A stretch of DNA of 40,399 nt, taken from the IMG/VR virus record IMGVR_UViG_3300006145_000007, positions 1-40,399 of that record, one strand, 5' to 3'. This stretch comes from a virus. Taxonomy: Duplodnaviria > Heunggongvirae > Uroviricota > Caudoviricetes. The position numbers were made by a program, and so were the translations under genes. Positions 308-8,385 of the stretch are shown here, one piece after another. Numbering within the stretch: the first letter of the stretch is position 1; each line of letters starts with the position of its first letter. The notes under the pieces were generated by a model that did not search any database, was not told the DNA's origin, and saw only the letters and a program-made list of their open reading frames with translations.

Positions 308-335
308 TTGACATCTGGGGCGATTATGCTATAAT
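308..335 (+). promoter_or_regulatory. Consensus sigmaA/sigma70 promoter with extended -10
   Basis: TTGACA (308-313), 16-nt spacer, TG at 327-328, TATAAT (330-335). It lies about 50 nt upstream of the recombinase ATG. Confidence 0.85.
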
Positions 336-384: not shown

Positions 385-1218
385 ATGGGCAAGGTTATCA
401 ATGTAGACTTCACAGCGCGGAGTGCAGACGCAAACGCAGACGCAGTCATCGACGTTAAGGCAGTAGCTCAGTCCCGGAGGTTGCTCCAGGCTGGCCTGAT
501 CGCGCCGGCTGTCGAGGATACCAGTTACGAAGTAGCGGGGGAACATGCAAGCGAACCTATCAAGAACGTAGATGACATCTACGCCGTGTCTGAGTGGTTC
601 ATCACCAGAGGCCGGTATCGCGACAACATGCTCTTCATCGTTGGCATCAACTTCGGCCTGCGAGTCAGCGACCTGCTGACGCTGCGGTTCTCCCACCTGA
701 TCGACGAACAGTTCAGGTTCAAGACCACGTTCCCCATTCTGGAGAAGAAGACCCGGAACACCAGGAAGGTGAAGCGCAACCGCTACATCACCATCAACGA
801 TGCCGTGGTGGATGCAGTCACGCTCTATCTGGAGAACACACCAGGCGTCAAGCTCAGCGACTTCATGTTCCGTGGTGAGAGCAACCGGTGCGGCAAGGAC
901 AACAACAAGGCCATGAGCCGGAAGTCTGCCGACCGGATCTTGAAGGAAGTCGGTGAGGCGCTCGGCCTCGGCATCCACATTGCTACCCACACGCTGCGCA
1001 AGACGTTCGCCTATCACCAGATGGTAATGAGCAACAACGACCCACGCAAGCTCCTGCTTCTGCAGAAGATGTTCGGACACAGCACGTCCGCCCAGACACT
1101 CGACTACATCGGTATCACTGGTGAGGAGATCGAGGAGGCGTACATGCAGCTCAACCTTGGCGGGCGCCGCTCGCTCCGGCTGATGGACAGCACCATCGTG
1201 GAGCAGCCGGCAGGCTAA
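385..1218 (+). CDS. Tyrosine recombinase, catalytic-domain-only (phage integrase family)
   Basis: Motifs GINFGLRVSD (R), LEKKT (K), THTLRKTF (HxxR), FGHS (H) and TLDYIG (Y). The GGAGG RBS is upstream. Confidence 0.9.
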   Translation: MGKVINVDFTARSADANADAVIDVKAVAQSRRLLQAGLIAPAVEDTSYEVAGEHASEPIKNVDDIYAVSEWFITRGRYRDNMLFIVGINFGLRVSDLLTLRFSHLIDEQFRFKTTFPILEKKTRNTRKVKRNRYITINDAVVDAVTLYLENTPGVKLSDFMFRGESNRCGKDNNKAMSRKSADRILKEVGEALGLGIHIATHTLRKTFAYHQMVMSNNDPRKLLLLQKMFGHSTSAQTLDYIGITGEEIEEAYMQLNLGGRRSLRLMDSTIVEQPAG

Positions 1219-1227
1219 TGCGCCACC

Positions 1228-1247
1228 TGCACCTTGACAACAAAATA
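1228..1247 (+). promoter_or_regulatory. boxA-like motif (TGCACCTTGACAACAAAATA), possible antitermination signal
   Basis: Resembles, from recall, the Firmicutes rrn boxA consensus (xxCTTTGAAAACTGAAxA). The embedded TTGACA has no credible -10 at 16-18 nt. Confidence 0.35.
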
Positions 1248-1411
1248 GGATACTACAGTCCTTAGCTCCCTCGTTTGAAGGTTCTATAGCTACAAGTGTT
1301 CCTACAGAGATTCTCTTTAAGGGTTACCCCCTGAAATAATCCATTTCAAGGGCCGAAATTTTCGTTTTACCACCTGGGTGGTGGTAAACGGTTGTAAAGG
1401 AGGTTTTGCTT

Positions 1412-1792
1412 ATGAGTGTGAACTGGAAGATGGACGAGACAGCGCTGGGCCGCGAGACGTTCGCCGAGGACTTCGACGACTACGGGCGCGGGGAAGACCA
1501 CAAGGTTTCTATCGGCGACGAGGTCGAAGCCACAGACAAATACGGGCGTACCCACGCCGGGGTGGTGGTGGGGATCATCCGCGACATCAACCGCGAGCCG
1601 GTATGTTATAAGGTATGGAATGAGGAGCTGGACGACTTCGATTTTATCCAGGCGTCAGACAACATCCTGTGTGAGCCGTGCGGCTCGTCGCAGTGGTCGC
1701 TGGAGCGCATCGGGTATGTGCGGCATGGGAACGATGCAGACCGGTGCTGGTTCTACCTGAACAAGCGGACGGGGGATGTGATCTATTGGTAA
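1412..1792 (+). CDS. Hypothetical acidic protein (126 aa), possible SH3/KOW-like beta-barrel
   Basis: AAGGAGG at 1397-1403 places the start at ATG 1412 rather than TTG 1406. The segment IGDEVEATDKYGRTHAGVVVGI is SH3/KOW-like. Codon usage matches neighbours. Confidence 0.7.
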   Translation: MSVNWKMDETALGRETFAEDFDDYGRGEDHKVSIGDEVEATDKYGRTHAGVVVGIIRDINREPVCYKVWNEELDDFDFIQASDNILCEPCGSSQWSLERIGYVRHGNDADRCWFYLNKRTGDVIYW

Positions 1793-3012
1793 AGGTATGT
1801 GACGCCATCATGGGAACCGGCAAGAGTTCCGCAGCCATTACATACATGAACGACCACCCCGAGAAGAAGTTCATCTACATCACACCATACCTTGAAGAAG
1901 CGACACGCATCGCCACATCATGTTCCCGGCTCCACTTCTTCGAGCCCAAGAAGAAAACGGAGTTCAATGGGTCAAAGACCCTACATACGATTGACCTCGT
2001 GAAGCGAGGGGAGAACATCGCCACCACCCATCAGGCGTTCCGGTTCTATCCACAGGAGCTTCTGGAACTGGTGAGTGGGCAGGGCTACACGTTAATCATC
2101 GACGAGAACGTAGACGTGCTGGAAACGCTGGACGAAGACCCGGCAGATATCCAGATGGCTATCGACGCCGGGTACATTTCCGAAATCAGGCCGGACGTTT
2201 TCCACCTCGTCAAAGACATATACGATGGGAAGACGCATCGGGATCTGTTCCGAGTCCTGCGGACACGCGACCTGATTCGGATGACTGGCGAGTCCAAGGA
2301 GTCTTTCTTCTACTGGCAGCTCCCGCCTGAACTCATCACCTCGTTCGACGAGGTATACATCCTGACGTACCTGTTTGAGGGACAGAGCCTGCACCACTTC
2401 CTCGAAATGTACGACATCCCATACCAGTTCGTTGGGGTGGAGAAAACGGGCGACAGCGAGTTTAGGTTCAGCAGCTCGACAGAATACGTGCCGGACTACG
2501 TCCATAACATCCACGACATGATTGAGATCGTGGACGACCCCAAGCTGAATGATGTCGGGGAGGACGACTTCTCCCTGTCCATGAGCTGGTTCGACAAGGA
2601 GAGTTCTGACACATCCAGGTTGAAGAACAACCTTTATAATTTCTTCCGCTATATGTGCGGAGCAGAGGCCGCAGACAGAATGTGGTCTACATATCGTGAC
2701 GCGAAGTCGAAGATCCAAGGCAAGGGATACACCAACGGGTTTATTCCGTTCAACAAGAAAGCGACGAATGAATATAGGAATCGCACCGCCGTTGCGTACT
2801 GCGTCAACCTATATATGAACGTCGGACAAAAACTGTTCTACCAAAACAACGGCGTGGAGGTAGACGAGGACGCATACGCCTTATCCATTATGGTACAGTG
2901 GATTTGGCGAAGCGCAATCCGTGATGGGCAGAAGATCGTACTGTATGTTCCAAGCAAACGGATGCGCAGCCTGCTTACCAACTGGATGGAGGAGGTGAGC
3001 AGACGTGGATAA
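1786..3012 (+). CDS. SF2/DEAD-like P-loop ATPase/helicase (408 aa; position recalls SPbeta YonV)
   Basis: Walker A DAIMGTGKS, Walker B LIIDE and C-terminal QWIWRSAIR. The TTG 1786 start follows GGGGATGTGA and overlaps the upstream stop. The track's 1678 extension lacks an RBS. Confidence 0.75.
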   Translation: MVKVCDAIMGTGKSSAAITYMNDHPEKKFIYITPYLEEATRIATSCSRLHFFEPKKKTEFNGSKTLHTIDLVKRGENIATTHQAFRFYPQELLELVSGQGYTLIIDENVDVLETLDEDPADIQMAIDAGYISEIRPDVFHLVKDIYDGKTHRDLFRVLRTRDLIRMTGESKESFFYWQLPPELITSFDEVYILTYLFEGQSLHHFLEMYDIPYQFVGVEKTGDSEFRFSSSTEYVPDYVHNIHDMIEIVDDPKLNDVGEDDFSLSMSWFDKESSDTSRLKNNLYNFFRYMCGAEAADRMWSTYRDAKSKIQGKGYTNGFIPFNKKATNEYRNRTAVAYCVNLYMNVGQKLFYQNNGVEVDEDAYALSIMVQWIWRSAIRDGQKIVLYVPSKRMRSLLTNWMEEVSRRG

Positions 3013-3178
3013 GTGTGACAGATGTTTATGGGCAGGGTGCTGTCGTACAGCCATGGATGGATGCCCGGACTTTACAACGGTGGACGAGAACGAATACATC
3101 GAGGAGTTCCACAGGGTTCGGTCAGAGGAACTGCTTCCGTATTGGATGATATATATCGGACAATACAGCGACGACTAA
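3005..3178 (+). CDS. Cys-rich micro-protein (57 aa), below the ORF-track cutoff
   Basis: GGAGGTGA (2991-2998) then GTG 3005. Translation: MDKCDRCLWAGCCRTAMDGCPDFTTVDENEYIEEFHRVRSEELLPYWMIYIGQYSDD*. It overlaps the upstream stop. Confidence 0.7.
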   Translation: MDKCDRCLWAGCCRTAMDGCPDFTTVDENEYIEEFHRVRSEELLPYWMIYIGQYSDD

Positions 3179-3212
3179 TTTTTTTAGCGTATCAACAATT
3201 TTATTTGAGGCG

Positions 3213-5978
3213 GTGAGCATTATTTCCAAACAACAGTCTTGCCAGAAGTTTATCCTCAAACTTCATAGCGCACGCTTACGCAAGGCAAGGTGGAATTTGA
3301 CGCTCCCTATCTCCGAGGCGCGGAGAAACGATGAAGTCATTTCCCTCAGCGACAGCCAGATGCTGCGCTTTATCGATAAGCTGAATGGCATCGAGAACGC
3401 AGACGCGATTGCGAAAGAGATTAAGAGCGAAATAAAAATGCTCAGAAAACAAATAAATTCTCTACAAAATCGCAAGAAAATTAAAAGTTTATACGAGAAA
3501 TTAGATGAAATACAATACAAACCAGATTACATGTGTTTGATCATCGACAAAGAGAAAGACTATTGGAGAGCTTGCAAGGGCTTCAAGATCAACGGGGTGA
3601 AGTACGTTAGGCTGCTGGGTACCAACGGCGGCATCAAGAACTCGACCATCGTGTTCGTCAGCGATAGGATGGCGCCTGAGCTGCGCCGGCGTATCGACAA
3701 CGGGAGGGACAAGAGCAAGGAGCTGGTGCCGGCCAAGCTGGAAGCGTACCAGGCGCTGGCCTGCAGCGGCTCCATCCCGGTGTCCTACCCCAATGGCATC
3801 GCCGTGGTCGAGGACTGCGTGACGCACTTCAAGTCCGACGTCATCAACATCGAGGACTCGGACGGTGAACCGAAGATGTGGTTCCAGGCCGGGGCGGATG
3901 TGGAGCTCGACGAGTCGGACGGGTACGGCATCATGCTCCCGTCTCTGGCGAGAAGGTGGTCGGAAGAACTTCAGCTCGACTACATGGTAAGCGGAGTCAA
4001 CACCCGCCTGTCCTTTGAGAAGGGGATGGTCTTTACCTTCGACTTCCTGGAGTTCGCCGACGAGGTGGCCGGCACCCGTATCATCAAGGATGCGTGGGGC
4101 AACGACGTGGATCTCTCCAACGTGGAGCTGATACTCACCACGTCCATGGTTAAGCTGTGGGACAGCTACGCGAGCTGCGAGGACTACCTGCGCAACTGCA
4201 AGGAGAACGGGTATACCTTTGGCATCACAAAGTCATGCCCAAAGGTTTTGGAGAATGAGCGCAGTACCAACTACCAGTTCCTCCAGGTGTACGACCTGGA
4301 CGACGCACAGGTCGAGCAGCTCATCCAGCCGACCATGCAGGAGATCCACGACATCCTGGCGCTCGACTGGAGGAAGGCCGCTCTGTTCCTCAAGGGCGTA
4401 GGGCTGAACGAGGAGAACATCGACTTCATCGAGTCGGACTTCGCGAAGGCCATCATGGTGGAGCCCAGGATGATGGACGACCCATTCGTCACGAAGAAGA
4501 TCTACGGCATGATAAAGAAGCGCATCATCGACGCGAAGATCGGCGTCATCAAAGTGCGCGGCAACTACTCCATCATTTCCGGCGACCCATACGCGCTGTG
4601 TCAGAGCATCTTCGGTCTGGAGGTCACCGGGCTGTTGAAGGCTGGCGAGATCTACAACAAGTATTGGTTAGACCACGGCGTGGACAACGTGGTGTGCTTC
4701 CGCGCTCCTATGACCTGTGCCAACAACGTAATCAAGATGCACGTCAACGGAAGTGAGGAGGCACAGCACTGGTACAGATACATGGTATCATGCTCGCTGC
4801 TGAATGCCTGGGACACCACGGCGGCTGCGCTGAACGGCGCAGACAAAGACGGGGATCTGATTTTCACAACGGACAATGAGATACTGGTGTCGTGCCACAG
4901 GCAGCTCCCCGCGCTCATGTGTGCCCAGAGGAAAGCGACGAAGTGCGTGCCGACGCAGGAGGACATCATCAACTCGAACATCGCCAGTTTCGGCGATGAC
5001 ATCGGGAAGATCACGAACCACATCACATCTATGTTCGATGTGATATCCATGTATGAGAAGGGCAGCCCGGAGTACGAGGCGCTCGACTACCGTATCAAGT
5101 GTGGGCAGAAGTTCCAGCAGGACTCCATCGACCGGGCCAAGGGCATCATCTCAAAGCCAATGCCAAAGAGCTGGTATGACAGGGCGTATGTCAGGAACGC
5201 ATATGGCGACGATGAAGAGAAGGTACAGTTCGCCATGAAGATCGTTGCGGACAAGAAGCCATACTTCATGCGGTACATCTACCCGACGCTGATGCGCCAG
5301 TACACTACATACGTTTCCAACACCAACAAGAAGGCGCTTCGCGAGTTCCGCCTGACCATTGACGAGCTGATAGAGAAGGAGCGCGCAGGCGGTCTGTCTG
5401 ACGAAGAACGGGAGTTCCTACACTACTATCGTATCAAGACGCCGGTGGGAGTACATGACTGTGTGATGAACAGAATATGCCGGCGCTTCGAGGACGAGTT
5501 CGATGGGTACATCACCCGCCACAACTCCGACGTCGAGTTCGACTATACGATTATGAAGAGCGGCGTGGAGTATACACAGACCCAGTACAACGCAATCCTT
5601 CGGTTGTACGAAGCGTACAACAAGCGGATGCAGGACTATATGCAGTACGCAAAGAAGGAGCGCCTGGATGAAGACGAGAACATGAACCACAGGTACGTTA
5701 TGGTTCAGGACTTCCGCAGAGAGTGCCAGATTGTTTGCTCCAATAAAAGTCAGTTGTGTGACATACTGTTGGATATATGTTATCAGAAAGAAGGGTCAAA
5801 GCAGTTTGTCTGGGACATGGCAAGCGATGAAATCATCGACGCTTTGGTCAGGAACAACGGCGGCTATATTTCCTTCCCTGTCCGCGACGACAACGGAGAC
5901 GTTTTGTTTGGCGGCGAACGGTTCTCGTTCGCAAGAAAGCAGATTGGAGGGGAAGCAGATGAATATAGTGCTGAATGA
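3213..5978 (+). CDS. yonO: YonO-like single-subunit DNA-dependent RNA polymerase (double-psi beta-barrel family)
   Basis: About 920 aa with the catalytic DxDGD loop LNGADKDGD (4833-4856), preceded by CFRAPM. It sits upstream of an SPbeta-like structural operon. The true start may be ATT 3222 (see findings). Confidence 0.85.
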   Translation: MSIISKQQSCQKFILKLHSARLRKARWNLTLPISEARRNDEVISLSDSQMLRFIDKLNGIENADAIAKEIKSEIKMLRKQINSLQNRKKIKSLYEKLDEIQYKPDYMCLIIDKEKDYWRACKGFKINGVKYVRLLGTNGGIKNSTIVFVSDRMAPELRRRIDNGRDKSKELVPAKLEAYQALACSGSIPVSYPNGIAVVEDCVTHFKSDVINIEDSDGEPKMWFQAGADVELDESDGYGIMLPSLARRWSEELQLDYMVSGVNTRLSFEKGMVFTFDFLEFADEVAGTRIIKDAWGNDVDLSNVELILTTSMVKLWDSYASCEDYLRNCKENGYTFGITKSCPKVLENERSTNYQFLQVYDLDDAQVEQLIQPTMQEIHDILALDWRKAALFLKGVGLNEENIDFIESDFAKAIMVEPRMMDDPFVTKKIYGMIKKRIIDAKIGVIKVRGNYSIISGDPYALCQSIFGLEVTGLLKAGEIYNKYWLDHGVDNVVCFRAPMTCANNVIKMHVNGSEEAQHWYRYMVSCSLLNAWDTTAAALNGADKDGDLIFTTDNEILVSCHRQLPALMCAQRKATKCVPTQEDIINSNIASFGDDIGKITNHITSMFDVISMYEKGSPEYEALDYRIKCGQKFQQDSIDRAKGIISKPMPKSWYDRAYVRNAYGDDEEKVQFAMKIVADKKPYFMRYIYPTLMRQYTTYVSNTNKKALREFRLTIDELIEKERAGGLSDEEREFLHYYRIKTPVGVHDCVMNRICRRFEDEFDGYITRHNSDVEFDYTIMKSGVEYTQTQYNAILRLYEAYNKRMQDYMQYAKKERLDEDENMNHRYVMVQDFRRECQIVCSNKSQLCDILLDICYQKEGSKQFVWDMASDEIIDALVRNNGGYISFPVRDDNGDVLFGGERFSFARKQIGGEADEYSAE

Positions 5979-6744
5979 GTCGGAGTATGTGGAGGGAATC
6001 CTCCGTGACCATCAACTCGGGCCGAAGCCTACGGAGACTCTGGTGCGTGTGGCTCGGTACTATTCGACGGTAGATATGATGAAGAAGTCAGACGTACGCG
6101 CCGAGCTTGAGAAGTTCATGCTCCGGTGCGACCCATCCATCAACTTGGTCAAGTGGCAGGACACGTTGGACAGAATCATCAAGGCCGCCGGCAAGTATCC
6201 GATGGTCGATATCGAGAGCGTCCCTATCACCGAGAAAGAGATTGCCCTGTGCGACGGCCTGTCCAAGGATACCAAGCGGCGCGACCTCTCGATGTATAAG
6301 AGCTTCTCGGATAAGCCGATGCGCCGCCTGCTGTTCACCCTGATTTGTCTGGCGAAATACTCGGACCTTGTGAACAGTAAGAACGGCGGGTGGGTCAACC
6401 GGACAGACAAAGAGATCTTCAAGCTGGCTAACGTGGTCACGCCGGTCAAGCGCCAGTCCCTCATGTTGAACGACCTGCGTGAGATGGGACATATCAAGTT
6501 CAGCAGGAAGGTGGACAACGTGAACATCAACGTCCAGTGCCTTGACCCGGGTGGCGCGGTGGCGCTTGAGATTCGTGACTTCCGCAACCTTGGCTATCAG
6601 TACATGCGCCATTGCGGAGAGGCATACATAGAGTGCGAACAATGCGGTCTGGTAATCAAGCAGCGCAACAACTCACAGAAATATTGCCCCGACTGTGCCA
6701 TCGACGTGAACAGGCAAAGGTCTATTGATAGACGGAAAAGTTGA
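5959..6744 (+). CDS. Putative DNA-binding protein: winged-helix-like region plus C-terminal C4 zinc ribbon (261 aa)
   Basis: GGAGGGG RBS then ATG 5959, overlapping the RNAP stop. It has ECEQCG-x12-YCPDC and a wHTH-like stretch TDKEIFKLAN...LNDLREMGHIKF...NINV. Confidence 0.75.
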   Translation: MNIVLNESEYVEGILRDHQLGPKPTETLVRVARYYSTVDMMKKSDVRAELEKFMLRCDPSINLVKWQDTLDRIIKAAGKYPMVDIESVPITEKEIALCDGLSKDTKRRDLSMYKSFSDKPMRRLLFTLICLAKYSDLVNSKNGGWVNRTDKEIFKLANVVTPVKRQSLMLNDLREMGHIKFSRKVDNVNINVQCLDPGGAVALEIRDFRNLGYQYMRHCGEAYIECEQCGLVIKQRNNSQKYCPDCAIDVNRQRSIDRRKS

Positions 6745-6773: not shown

Positions 6774-6809
6774 AGCCTGTAAGTATTCAGTCCAAGATAC
6801 TTACAGGCT
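6774..6809. repeat. Perfect 13-bp inverted repeat with 10-nt spacer
   Basis: AGCCTGTAAGTAT-tcagtccaag-ATACTTACAGGCT, with no U-tract after it. Confidence 0.9.
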
Positions 6810-6890
6810 ACTGTGCAGTATTTCTATATGTAGAGAGAAAAGGCATAGAAAAATCACATTATATACTATAGGTTGAAAGGGTGTTCATTT

Positions 6891-7052
6891 TTGGTTGCTA
6901 TCAGCGCACGAGAAAAACAGATCATTGCGGAGAGATGTCCGATGGTGCATATCCGTCGGACGGTCAAACAGAAGAGTAACAGGCATCGGTACTACATGGA
7001 AGAGAGTAGGGAAGCCATGCGTATTCTGAGGTCGCTCCGCAGGTCGGCATAA
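6891..7052 (+). CDS. Small basic protein (53 aa), first gene of the putative late operon
   Basis: GAAAGGGTG RBS then TTG 6891. Translation: MVAISAREKQIIAERCPMVHIRRTVKQKSNRHRYYMEESREAMRILRSLRRSA*. It ends just before the next RBS. Confidence 0.65.
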   Translation: MVAISAREKQIIAERCPMVHIRRTVKQKSNRHRYYMEESREAMRILRSLRRSA

Positions 7053-7064
7053 GAGGAGGACTGT

Positions 7065-8267
7065 ATGGACAAGCTGACGAAGAGGCCAAACGAAACAGAT
7101 TTGGCGTATCATAAGCGTCTGATCTATGGGAAGTTGGTCGATGGGACGCTTGCCGACGAGGACTACTCAGAACTGGCGCCATATGTCTATGGTAGAGAAT
7201 ACAGTACGGATGTTGCACGCAGGATGATGTACGGCAGCAAGAGAACGCTTGAGCTGTTAAGCGAGAGCGCCGAGCAGTCTATCACATCCGACGATATCCT
7301 GAGCGAGCTGGACGCGAAGAGGATTGAGCTGCAGAAGGACAAGCAGAAGATGCTTGACCAGAGGTCTGCGCTCAACAAACTGATCCGTGAACGCGCACGT
7401 CAGGAAGAGATCAATGAAATCCTGATGAGCGCGGTGGAGAGGGGTAATCTTCCATCGCTTGATTACCATGGCCCGAGTGAGGGTGTCACATTGTCATCCG
7501 ACAACGATATCCTGGTGAGTCTCAATGACATTCACTATGGGGCGAAGGTGAACAACTATTGGAACAAGTACGACTCCGATATCTGTCGCGATATGATGCG
7601 CCGGTATCTTGACCGTATCATTGAGATCGGTCGTTTACATAGGAGCGAGAATTGCATCGTGTGGGAGAATGGAGACGCGATCTCCGGCAACATCCACTAC
7701 TCGATTGCAGTGACCAACAAAGAGAACGTAATACAGCAGGTCATTGGTGTGTCTGAGCTGATTGCAGAGTTCCTTGCTGAACTGAGCAAACACTTTGCCA
7801 GTGTGCAGTTTGTGAGTGTGTCAGGCAATCACTCCAGACTTGACGTGAAAGACCGTGCCTTACAGTCTGAGCGCATGGACGATCTGGTGGAATGGTATCT
7901 GGCTGCACGCCTGCAGAACTTTGACAACGTCTTGATTGGCGTTGGCGAGAAGGTAGACGCCACCATGTATCTGATTGATGTGCGTGGTAAGACGTACTGT
8001 GGTATCCACGGTGATTACGACGGAAGTGCCACGAAGGTGCAGGCGCTTCAGACAATGGCTCGCAGGCCGCTGTACGCGGTTCTGAGCGGGCATCTTCACC
8101 ACAACATGATGGATGAAGTCCAGGGGATCAAGACGGTCATGGCCGGCAGCTTCCTCGGGATGGATGATTTTTGTGTCAGTAAACGAATATACGGCCGCCC
8201 GGAGCAGATGGTATGTATCTGTGACAACAGCGGCATCAGGTGTTCGTACAATATTGATCTCAGCTAA
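7065..8267 (+). CDS. Calcineurin-like metallophosphoesterase with N-terminal coiled coil (YonJ-like position)
   Basis: All five metal motifs are present: DIH, GD, GNH, IHGD and GHLH. RBS is GAGGAGG. Confidence 0.85.
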   Translation: MDKLTKRPNETDLAYHKRLIYGKLVDGTLADEDYSELAPYVYGREYSTDVARRMMYGSKRTLELLSESAEQSITSDDILSELDAKRIELQKDKQKMLDQRSALNKLIRERARQEEINEILMSAVERGNLPSLDYHGPSEGVTLSSDNDILVSLNDIHYGAKVNNYWNKYDSDICRDMMRRYLDRIIEIGRLHRSENCIVWENGDAISGNIHYSIAVTNKENVIQQVIGVSELIAEFLAELSKHFASVQFVSVSGNHSRLDVKDRALQSERMDDLVEWYLAARLQNFDNVLIGVGEKVDATMYLIDVRGKTYCGIHGDYDGSATKVQALQTMARRPLYAVLSGHLHHNMMDEVQGIKTVMAGSFLGMDDFCVSKRIYGRPEQMVCICDNSGIRCSYNIDLS

Positions 8268-8311: not shown

Positions 8312-8385
8312 CGCAGGATCGTCTAAAGGTAGGATATTTGGTTCATGCCCAAAAGATTAGAGTTCGACTCTCTATCCTGCAACCA
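8312..8385 (+). tRNA. tRNA with CAT anticodon, initiator (fMet)-like, encoded CCA
   Basis: Cloverleaf: CGCAGGA/TCCTGCA with C1:A72 mismatch, D-loop containing GG, TTTGG-TTCATGC-CCAAA, T-arm TAGAG-TTCGACT-CTCTA, then A73 and CCA. Confidence 0.85.

What the first reader, a model, noticed from the sequence alone, without database searches (positions are those of the whole stretch)
1786..6744. Candidate multi-component phage transcription system: YonO-like RNAP flanked by an SF2 ATPase and a wHTH/Zn-ribbon factor
Seen: four tightly coupled genes (ATPase, Cys-rich micro-ORF, DxDGD RNAP, wHTH plus C4 Zn ribbon) sit directly upstream of the structural operon. Established: SPbeta YonO is a minimal double-psi-barrel RNAP that transcribes late genes. 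Archaeal TFE and eukaryotic TFIIE-alpha are winged helix plus Zn ribbon, and XPB is an SF2 translocase that opens promoters. Inference: the neighbours could act as dedicated initiation factors, giving a phage analogue of a pre-initiation complex that I do not recall being described. The TFE/XPB comparison is architectural only, not demonstrated homology.
Basis: partly seen in the sequence, partly recalled or inferred. Interest (0 to 1): 0.8.

Follow-up and report, generated by a model that had tools for sequence, protein, structure and literature searches.

The report
Phage RNA polymerase with dedicated DNA-binding partner
A large SPbeta-like gut phage encodes a minimal YonO-type RNA polymerase, and the gene right after it (helix bundle, winged helix, zinc ribbon) is fused to the polymerase in other phages, so it is a testable candidate for the unknown factor that aims this polymerase at its late promoter; the neighbouring helicase-like ATPase is probably not part of the machine.

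Summary
The four genes are real and tightly coupled. They are a YonV-family SF2 ATPase (1786-3012), a conserved Cys-rich 57-aa ORF (3005-3178), a YonO-family two-barrel RNA polymerase with invariant DxDGD (3213-5978), and a 261-aa protein (5959-6744). AlphaFold2 (pLDDT 91) shows this last protein as helix bundle + winged helix + C4 zinc ribbon.

The polymerase/261-aa pair is the solid part. A homologue lies immediately downstream of the polymerase in every separate-gene relative checked (27-100% polymerase identity, including 80/80 IMG/VR loci). It is fused whole to the polymerase in one metagenomic lineage, on 5 contigs. Its zinc ribbon alone forms the C-terminus of SPbeta YonO and of the Perkons polymerase.

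The ATPase is not an obligate partner. It is absent from five complete YonO-encoding phage genomes and present in six phages that lack the polymerase.

After the pair comes a covarying, terminator-like hairpin and then a conserved, single-copy ~30-nt motif (6812-6840). A similar motif lies inside the primer-extension amplicon of SPbeta's mapped YonO promoter.

Best reading: a two-component late-transcription unit, polymerase plus detachable DNA-binding subunit, of a known polymerase family. The TFE resemblance is generic. The PIC/XPB analogy is not supported for the ATPase. No experiment, and no predicted complex, supports binding.

The parts
308..335 (+). Perfect sigma-A/sigma-70 consensus promoter (TTGACA-16-TG-TATAAT). 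It probably drives the early operon 385-6744, which contains the polymerase genes.
   Evidence: 12 of 12 matches with an extended -10. No terminator-like site on the + strand with more than 4 G-C pairs lies between it and 6744 (weaker + strand matches at 2617 and 4008). Its function is inferred.
1786..3012 (+). YonV-family SF2 ATPase/helicase-like protein (408 aa; Pfam PF27199 YonV_C on its homologues). It is syntenic, but not an obligate partner of the polymerase.
   Evidence: phrog_2467; 36% identity to SPbeta YonV; TM 0.89 to YonV; next best XPD/DinG; Pfam name. Decoupling from the polymerase.
3005..3178 (+). Conserved 57-aa micro-ORF. It has an N-terminal Cys cluster that is lost in some lineages and a conserved C-terminal helix motif (IE..R.EF...W..Y). 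Function unknown.
   Evidence: No Pfam, PHROG, NCBIfam or PADLOC match.
3213..5978 (+). YonO-family single-chain two-barrel RNA polymerase (921 aa). The catalytic DKDGD lies at nt 4842-4856.
5959..6744 (+). Polymerase partner protein (261 aa). Domains: four-helix bundle (aa 3-84, nt 5965-6210), winged helix (aa 88-220, nt 6220-6618), C4 zinc ribbon (Cys at nt 6634-6696).
   Evidence: (phrog_30716). Adjacency. Fusions.
6774..6809 (+). Hairpin with a 14-bp stem directly after the partner gene. In relatives the stems covary, and some copies are followed by a T-run, so it is a likely terminator of the early operon. The window's copy has no T-run.
   Evidence: MFE z-score -3.8.
6812..6840 (+). Candidate late promoter for the phage polymerase: TGTGCAGTATTTCTATATGTAGAGAGAAA. 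The family consensus is KTGMWG-N5-C-TATAAT-G. It is single-copy in the 104-kb genome.
   Evidence: SPbeta counterpart inside the P_YonO primer-extension amplicon. Inferred, not shown.
6873..7052 (+). Conserved 59-aa ORF, the first gene after the candidate promoter. It occupies the position of SPbeta yonK but shows no detectable homology to it.
   Evidence: codon-level conservation across 6 relatives; no Pfam YonK match.
7065..8267 (+). YonJ-like metallophosphoesterase/exonuclease, the first large gene of the presumed late operon.
   Evidence: Pfam YonJ_N/YonJ_CC on the orthologue.

Best explanation
Genes 3213-5978 and 5959-6744 encode a two-component version of the SPbeta YonO late-gene RNA polymerase.

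- The 921-aa chain is the catalytic two-barrel core.
- The 261-aa chain is a detachable subunit. Its C-terminal zinc ribbon probably anchors it to the C-terminal domain of the core; this is inferred from the fusions. Its winged helix and helix bundle probably bind DNA and help promoter-specific initiation; this is inferred from the fold.

Both genes, together with the ATPase and the micro-ORF, appear to be transcribed early by the host polymerase from the consensus promoter at 308-335. That transcript likely ends at the hairpin at 6774-6809. The phage enzyme would then start the late operon at the conserved single-copy motif at 6812-6840. That operon runs 59-aa ORF, exonuclease, HU, terminase, portal, head and tail.

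The YonV-type SF2 ATPase belongs to the SPbeta-supergroup gene set and is not needed by this polymerase family in general. Its role is unknown. It is most likely an early or lysogeny-expressed DNA/RNA translocase unrelated to initiation.
For: Shown here:
- The RNAP is homologous to the experimentally characterised YonO and has an invariant DxDGD.
- A partner-family gene lies immediately downstream of the RNAP in 80/80 IMG/VR relatives. The same holds in c-st, BUCT082, PMBT24 and MT835481, and in four metagenomic contexts with a profile-verified partner gene (L099, L106-L108), three of them at 28-35% RNAP identity, with E 1e-19 to 1e-25.
- In P0351 the whole partner is fused to the RNAP C-terminus (hhalign probability 98%, E 6e-14, 225 columns). 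It is a continuous ORF on 5 contigs; the four shown come from four different runs.
- SPbeta YonO residues 795-826 match the partner's zinc ribbon (probability 89%, E 2e-6), directly after the segment that aligns to RNAP residues 746-883. This is the only match to the partner profile in the whole SPbeta genome. The Perkons RNAP has the same fusion.
- No partner homologue was found in three phages that have the ATPase but no RNAP.
- The AF2 model (pLDDT 91) shows a DNA-binding-type winged helix.
- Hairpin plus motif are conserved downstream of the pair and are unique in the genome.
- A matching motif in SPbeta lies within the 242-nt amplicon used to map the YonO start site. The pattern occurs 3 times in 269 kb, roughly P 0.003, and was chosen post hoc.

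From the literature: Forrest et al. 2017 (PMC5467207) show that YonO transcribes the late operon from a start upstream of yonK. They leave open whether it needs phage factors.
Against: - No physical evidence of binding exists.
- The fusion argument shows a functional link. It does not show that the partner acts in initiation rather than in stability, processivity or termination.
- SPbeta and Perkons keep only the zinc ribbon. TR-TP1 keeps only the helical and winged-helix part, without a ribbon. 0305phi8-36 has neither. No single domain is therefore universal.
- The promoter motif is inferred from conservation. Its TATAAT-like box, with a TG-extended form in some relatives, could instead serve host sigma-A.
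- The SPbeta start-site coordinate could not be mapped onto the motif exactly.
- The motif is unclear in the most distant, AT-rich relatives.
Confidence: 0.6

Rival explanations
1. Full pre-initiation-complex model. The ATPase, micro-ORF and winged-helix/zinc-ribbon protein all assemble with the polymerase, and the SF2 ATPase opens the promoter as XPB does.
For: - The order ATPase - small ORF - RNAP - partner is kept in all IMG/VR relatives that have upstream sequence.
- The same order occurs in the divergent P0351 lineage.
- yonV lies 3.4-4.3 kb from the RNAP in SPbeta and BUCT082.
- The ATPase has a complete SF2 core whose nearest solved folds are the TFIIH subunit XPD and DinG.
Against: - The ATPase is absent from the complete YonO-encoding genomes c-st, PMBT24, TR-TP1, Perkons and 0305phi8-36, and from 6 kb upstream of a distant RNAP.
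- It is present in AM24, PT1-1, Fnu1, MMB025, pCD1602_4 and VH-8, which lack the RNAP.
- SPbeta yonV is transcribed divergently from yonO, together with a toxin-antitoxin mRNA, in uninduced cells (PMC5848175).
- No ATPase-RNAP fusion was seen.
Confidence: 0.12
2. The 261-aa protein is simply the split-off C-terminal domain of the polymerase. On this reading it is a structural subunit needed for folding, clamp-like DNA or RNA holding, or processivity, and it has no role in promoter choice.
For: - Fused and split forms coexist.
- The c-st annotators already called CST177 a 'YonO homologue, C-terminus only'.
- This polymerase gene is also split elsewhere in some phages.
- YonO, which carries the ribbon, forms stable elongation complexes in vitro (PMC5467207).
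Against: - Only the ~30-aa ribbon is shared with YonO. The helix bundle and winged helix (about 220 aa) are an independent module of a DNA-binding type.
- That module varies in presence among lineages, which fits an accessory factor better than a core domain.
Confidence: 0.2
3. The 261-aa protein is an ordinary phage transcription regulator or replication-origin binder. It would act on host polymerase or on DNA replication and merely be encoded next to the polymerase.
For: - The winged-helix fold ties with ORC/Cdc6, Fur, CAP and MarR.
- AlphaFold DB clusters include the C-terminal regions of primase-polymerase proteins.
Against: - Two independent kinds of fusion to the polymerase exist.
- Adjacency is strict across 27-100% polymerase identity.
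- No family member was found apart from the polymerase in the genomes tested.
Confidence: 0.05

Closest known systems
SPbeta YonO (Forrest et al. 2017, PMC5467207), a single-chain two-barrel DNA-dependent RNA polymerase of the late genes
   Same: - The catalytic core is homologous (26% identity over ~490 aa, DxDGD).
- The gene sits at the same place, near the genome end: small ORF - RNAP - (HU) - late promoter - exonuclease - terminase.
- The C-terminal domain is homologous.
   Different: - YonO carries the zinc ribbon on its own C-terminus and has no helix-bundle/winged-helix module.
- Here the ribbon sits on a separate 261-aa protein with those two extra domains, and the core ends in a 38-aa tail instead.
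Archaeal TFE / eukaryotic TFIIE-alpha (and the RNA polymerase III subunit Rpc82/RPC62)
   Same: The domain order is winged helix followed by zinc ribbon. VIA alignment of the winged helix gives Z 6.5 to 1q1h, 6.4 to 8byq_W and 5.9 to 6xjf.
   Different: - There is no sequence or profile match.
- The Z-scores are tied with many unrelated winged helices (ORC2, Cdc6, Fur, CAP).
- There is an extra N-terminal helix bundle.
- The ribbon signature C-x2-C-G-x12-KYC-x2-C is its own.
TFIIH helicases XPB and XPD; bacterial DinG
   Same: The ATPase has a two-RecA SF2 core with motifs I, II and VI. The best solved matches are XPD and DinG (Foldseek E 6e-7, TM 0.5).
   Different: - It is a 408-aa minimal core.
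- No Fe-S or Arch domain was evident.
- XPB is not among the top matches.
- Its distribution across genomes is decoupled from the polymerase.
Helix-bundle domains of archaeo-eukaryotic primases (PriX of PriSLX, 5of3; RepB' 3h20; C-terminal parts of PrimPol proteins)
   Same: The N-terminal bundle of the partner aligns to PriX (Z 7.8, 77 residues) and to RepB' (Z 6.0). AlphaFold DB clusters of primase proteins match residues 1-256. In primases this domain holds the template and the initiating nucleotide; that statement is from my own knowledge.
   Different: The Z-scores are in the range common for small helical bundles. No sequence similarity was found, and homology is not established.
Phage N4 RNA polymerase II with gp2, and bacterial sigma factors: polymerases that need a separate specificity factor
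   Same: The concept is the same: a catalytic core plus a dissociable DNA-binding factor that directs it to promoters.
   Different: The folds and families are unrelated. Dependence on the factor is not shown here.

Membership tests
YonO-type two-barrel RNA polymerase (Pfam RdRP PF05183 superfamily) | DxDxD (DbDGD) metal-binding signature in the beta-prime-like double-psi beta-barrel | tested here: met
   D544, D546 and D548 are invariant in 71 homologues. The sequence is ADKDGD.
YonO-type two-barrel RNA polymerase (Pfam RdRP PF05183 superfamily) | Significant sequence homology to the experimentally characterised YonO and to the Pfam model | tested here: met
   BLASTP E 3e-30 against YonO. Pfam RdRP 42.1 bits against a cut-off of 23.8. 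phrog_8308 E 2e-90.
YonO-type two-barrel RNA polymerase (Pfam RdRP PF05183 superfamily) | Second (beta-like) barrel supplying conserved basic residues to the active site | tested here: inconclusive
   Invariant K175, K270 and K314 exist upstream of the DxDGD barrel. The RNAP was not folded, so they are not assigned to a barrel.
YonO-type two-barrel RNA polymerase (Pfam RdRP PF05183 superfamily) | DNA-templated RNA synthesis and transcription of late genes | not testable with these tools
   Known only for SPbeta YonO (PMC5467207).
TFE / TFIIE-alpha | Sequence or profile membership (Pfam TFIIE_alpha and related models) | tested here: not met
   hmmscan of the 261-aa protein against Pfam at E up to 0.1 gave only two sub-threshold, unrelated hits. 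NCBIfam gave none.
TFE / TFIIE-alpha | Extended winged helix followed by a zinc ribbon, with structural similarity clearly above other winged helices | tested here: inconclusive
   The domain order is the same. VIA Z 6.5 (1q1h) and 6.4 (8byq_W) are tied with ORC2, Cdc6, Fur and CAP at Z 6-8.
TFE / TFIIE-alpha | Binds the polymerase clamp/stalk and stabilises the open complex | not testable with these tools
   No binding assay was possible.
XPB-type promoter-opening translocase (TFIIH) | SF2 core with Walker A, Walker B and an arginine-finger motif VI | tested here: met
   Invariant G10/G12/K13, D106/E107 and Q371...R375...R379. Two-RecA fold.
XPB-type promoter-opening translocase (TFIIH) | XPB-specific elements (damage-recognition domain, RED motif, thumb), or closest structural similarity to XPB | tested here: inconclusive
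   The top solved matches are XPD, DinG, Hel308 and DEAD-box proteins. XPB does not appear in the 50 rows listed.
XPB-type promoter-opening translocase (TFIIH) | Obligate co-occurrence with its polymerase | tested here: not met
   Five RNAP-positive genomes lack it and six ATPase-positive genomes lack the RNAP. Positive controls were run in the same searches.
YonV family (Pfam PF27199 YonV_C) | Full-length homology to SPbeta YonV | tested here: met
   36% identity over 98% of the length. TM 0.89 to the YonV model. PF27199 is recorded on all listed homologues. The model itself is not in the local Pfam copy.

The most novel reading that the evidence does not exclude
YonO-family minimal RNA polymerases do not find promoters alone. 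They use a dedicated helix-bundle/winged-helix/zinc-ribbon subunit that is either separate, as here, or partly or wholly fused. It docks through the ribbon and reads a KTGMWG-N5-C-TATAAT late promoter placed just after an early terminator. This would be the first initiation factor described for a single-chain two-barrel polymerase, and a minimal, independently evolved counterpart of sigma/TFB/TFE.
Probability: 0.4. Interest if true: 0.8.

Novelty: new variant of a known kind. Interest (0 to 1): 0.65.

Why it matters
Forrest et al. (2017) left one question open: does YonO, the smallest known relative of cellular RNA polymerases, recognise promoters by itself or with phage factors? This locus supplies a specific candidate factor and places it in a family of at least 277 proteins. 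It also offers natural fused and split forms that argue for a physical partnership, a candidate promoter sequence, and a tractable Bacillus subtilis phage (BUCT082) that carries the split form next to a promoter region 95% identical to SPbeta's. A minimal polymerase-plus-factor pair would be useful for studying how two-barrel polymerases initiate, and as an orthogonal expression system. The work also removes the ATPase from the model, so experiments can be focused.

Tried and rejected
- Complex prediction of RNAP 121-921 with partner 86-261 returned 'no answer' (score 0.00, controls not run). It is neither support nor evidence against.
- The search for homologous proteins for longer, fused forms of the partner found nothing. 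The one fusion came from the RNAP representative search instead.
- An exact search of genome contigs for the SPbeta motif, meant to map the published start-site coordinate, found nothing. The start site is therefore placed only within the 242-nt primer-extension amplicon.
- Foldseek against PDB gave no match at E <= 0.001 for the partner. BFVD matches are family members with unreliable automatic names such as 'HscB', 'RNA polymerase subunit' and 'RecR'. The Atlas gave only unnamed viral clusters.
- PADLOC and NCBIfam gave nothing for the ATPase, micro-ORF or partner.
- A profile of a subset of the micro-ORFs (the window's plus 11 relatives') did not detect SPbeta YonP or the small ORFs upstream of other YonO-type genes.
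- A weight matrix of the main-clade motif found no copy in this genome, because the window's subclade uses the TGTGCAG variant. Degenerate patterns then found only the one intergenic site plus a few low-stringency matches elsewhere in the genome that were not followed up and are presumed chance.
- The search for related loci with the 20-sequence RNAP alignment failed for lack of conserved words. A closer alignment was used instead, so the 80 loci are all fairly close relatives and count as one lineage.
Full report
**What the window is.** The window is the first 40.4 kb of a 104.4-kb IMG/VR phage contig. All major genes lie on the + strand. PHROG and Pfam scans, together with the Pfam names attached to orthologues in related contigs (YonV_C, YonJ_N/CC, YonG_N/C, YonD_N), place it in the SPbeta supergroup of large temperate siphoviruses. 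This one comes from gut Clostridia-type metagenomes. The gene order runs as follows: tyrosine-recombinase-like gene, 128-aa ORF, ATPase, 57-aa ORF, polymerase, 261-aa protein. Then come a hairpin, a 59-aa ORF, a YonJ-like exonuclease, tRNA-Met, an HU-like protein, a YonG-like protein, terminase and portal. This mirrors SPbeta's yonP-yonO-yonN-(late promoter)-yonK-yonJ.

- The ATPase (1786-3012) starts at a TTG that overlaps the upstream stop. It has invariant Walker A, Walker B and motif VI residues.
- The micro-ORF (3005-3178) overlaps the ATPase stop. Relatives conserve a C-terminal helix motif, while the Cys cluster is kept in many lineages and lost in others.
- The polymerase (3213-5978) matches Pfam RdRP above threshold and matches SPbeta YonO at E 3e-30. 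D544/D546/D548 are invariant in 71 homologues.
- The 261-aa protein (5959-6744) overlaps the polymerase end by 20 nt and has four invariant cysteines.
- An AlphaFold2 model built on 48 homologues (pLDDT 91) shows three domains. These are a four-helix bundle (residues 3-84), a winged helix (88-220) and a zinc ribbon (223-247).

**The polymerase and the 261-aa protein form a unit.**
- A member of the 261-aa family lies immediately downstream of the polymerase in all 80 IMG/VR loci recovered (56-100% polymerase identity).
- The same is true in Clostridium phage c-st, Bacillus phage BUCT082, Enterocloster phage PMBT24 and a faecal phage contig. It is also true in metagenomic contexts chosen for low polymerase identity (28-35%), with profile E-values of 1e-19 to 1e-25 and the same C-x2-C...KYC-x2-C ribbon.
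- One lineage (protein P0351, 1173 aa) has the entire partner fused to the polymerase C-terminus. hhalign gives probability 98%, E 6e-14 over 225 columns. The fusion is a continuous ORF on five contigs; the four shown come from four different runs, so it is not an assembly accident.
- In SPbeta YonO, residues 668-794 align to polymerase residues 746-883. The next 32 residues align to the partner's zinc ribbon (probabilities 96% and 89%).
- That ribbon is the only match to the partner profile in the whole SPbeta genome. The Psychrobacillus phage Perkons polymerase shows the same arrangement.
- The c-st annotators had already labelled CST177 a 'YonO homologue, C-terminus only', but I found no paper that treats it as a factor.
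- Gene fusion of this kind is standard evidence for a functional, usually physical, link. It does not say what the partner does.

**What the partner probably does.** The winged helix is of the common DNA-binding type. VIA Z-scores of 6-8 tie ORC2/Cdc6, Fur, CAP, TFE-alpha (6.5), TFIIE-alpha (6.4) and RPC62. TFE is therefore a fair architectural analogy, but membership in that family is not supported, and no Pfam model matches. The N-terminal bundle resembles the helix-bundle domains of primases (PriX Z 7.8, RepB' Z 6.0). Whole-protein matches in AlphaFold DB include the C-terminal parts of primase-polymerases. These scores are within the range seen for unrelated small bundles, so I treat them as a lead only. 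I infer that the ribbon is the anchor, because it is the part fused directly to the core in SPbeta. I infer that the winged helix and bundle contact DNA.

**A candidate late promoter.**
- Directly after the partner's stop codon, relatives share a long hairpin whose two arms covary. In some of them it is followed by a T-run, so it is terminator-like.
- Next comes a conserved block of about 30 nt. Its consensus is TTGATGrGGTGC-TATAAT-GAAaGGaAAtAtA. In the window's subclade it reads TGTGCAGTATTTCTATATGTAG.
- The block is contiguous. Its second 'TATAAT' position varies among A, G and T, and the upstream hexamer lies only six bases from it. That is not the geometry of a sigma-A promoter.
- The block occurs once in the 104-kb genome. 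This agrees with SPbeta, where YonO drives one long late operon from a single start upstream of yonK (PMC5467207).
- Using the primers listed in that paper's supplement, I located the 242-nt amplicon used to map the start. It contains TTGCAGTTAGTCGGATAAT, which follows the same pattern.
- The pattern occurs three times in both strands of SPbeta. The chance of one copy falling in the amplicon is about 0.003, but the pattern was tuned after I had seen the sequence.
- BUCT082 carries the split polymerase-plus-partner. It shares a 1.5-kb block with SPbeta at 95% identity around this site, while the polymerase modules themselves have no nucleotide similarity. This is a natural module swap, and it suggests both architectures serve the same promoter.
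- The perfect sigma-A consensus promoter at 308-335 would account for early, host-dependent expression of the polymerase operon.

**The ATPase.** It is a complete SF2 core. It is 36% identical to SPbeta YonV (TM 0.89), and its next nearest folds are XPD and DinG rather than XPB. It lies upstream of the polymerase in the window's clade and in the P0351 lineage, and within 3.4-4.3 kb in SPbeta and BUCT082.

Profile searches of whole genomes, with positive controls in the same runs, show two things. It is absent from c-st, PMBT24, TR-TP1, Perkons and 0305phi8-36, all of which encode the polymerase. It is present in phages of Acinetobacter, Staphylococcus, Fusobacterium, Alicyclobacillus, Clostridioides and Vibrio that lack both polymerase and partner. 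In SPbeta, yonV is co-transcribed with the yonT toxin mRNA in uninduced cells (PMC5848175). The ATPase is therefore not a general component of this transcription system. A lineage-specific helper role cannot be excluded.

**Verdict.** The polymerase is a new member of a known family. The new elements are the recognition of its dedicated partner family, the fusion evidence and the candidate promoter. I found these described nowhere in the searchable literature. Together they make an explicitly open question directly testable. The three-factor 'phage pre-initiation complex' is not supported as proposed. No complex prediction or RNA data could be obtained.

Noticed in passing
L002:6001-9110 (c-st), L093:408-4178 (MT835481), L009 (PMBT24): In several phages the polymerase gene is interrupted. 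In c-st and MT835481 the break falls exactly at profile position 545/546, inside the catalytic DxDGD motif, with 0.3-0.9 kb of inserted DNA. Most Enterocloster phage records (not PMBT24) show 2-3 tblastn pieces spread over about 3.5 kb for a query that needs about 2.6 kb. This looks like mobile introns or homing elements at the most conserved site, or like a truly split enzyme.
   Followed up: partly
L099:5684-6196 and L100:1964-2476: In some relatives the Cys-rich micro-ORF between the ATPase and the polymerase is replaced by a 170-aa ORF. By eye it looks like a small sigma-70-family factor, with region 2-like and region 4-like segments. This was not tested with a profile.
   Followed up: no
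window 308-335 and 385-1218: A perfect TTGACA-16-TG-TATAAT promoter precedes a 277-aa tyrosine-recombinase-like gene at the head of the operon that contains the polymerase. I did not check whether this recombinase is catalytically intact or is a 'dead integrase' regulator like the one noted elsewhere in this genome.
   Followed up: no
window 6873-7052: A 59-aa ORF is conserved at codon level in relatives. It contains ...HIRRTVKQKS.RHRYYMEES... and sits where SPbeta has yonK, but it has no Pfam YonK match. It is the first gene after the candidate late promoter.
   Followed up: partly
L001:1141-2648 (SPbeta, minus strand) and L003:7447-8973 (BUCT082): The 1.5-kb non-coding stretch between yonN and yonK is 95% identical between SPbeta and BUCT082, although the flanking polymerase modules share no nucleotide similarity. 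It contains an Rfam DUF3800-VIII RNA motif (L001 1410-1475) and the 'unannotated non-coding RNA' mentioned by Forrest et al. The window has no equivalent long non-coding stretch.
   Followed up: partly
L095:6156-7547 and the contig of P0381: GIY-YIG endonuclease genes are inserted immediately upstream of the polymerase gene in two divergent lineages. This again points to homing-element traffic around this gene.
   Followed up: no
window 8312-8385: A tRNA-Met (CAU) gene lies between the exonuclease and the HU-like gene, inside the presumed late operon (ARAGORN, Rfam).
   Followed up: no
L011-L090 (IMG/VR relatives): In many relatives the contig ends about 4.3 kb upstream of the polymerase gene. 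In the Enterocloster, Thomasclavelia and Perkons isolates the polymerase lies within a few kb of the genome end or terminal repeat. In SPbeta the packaging start lies between yonR and yonP. The polymerase module therefore seems to sit consistently next to the genome terminus.
   Followed up: no
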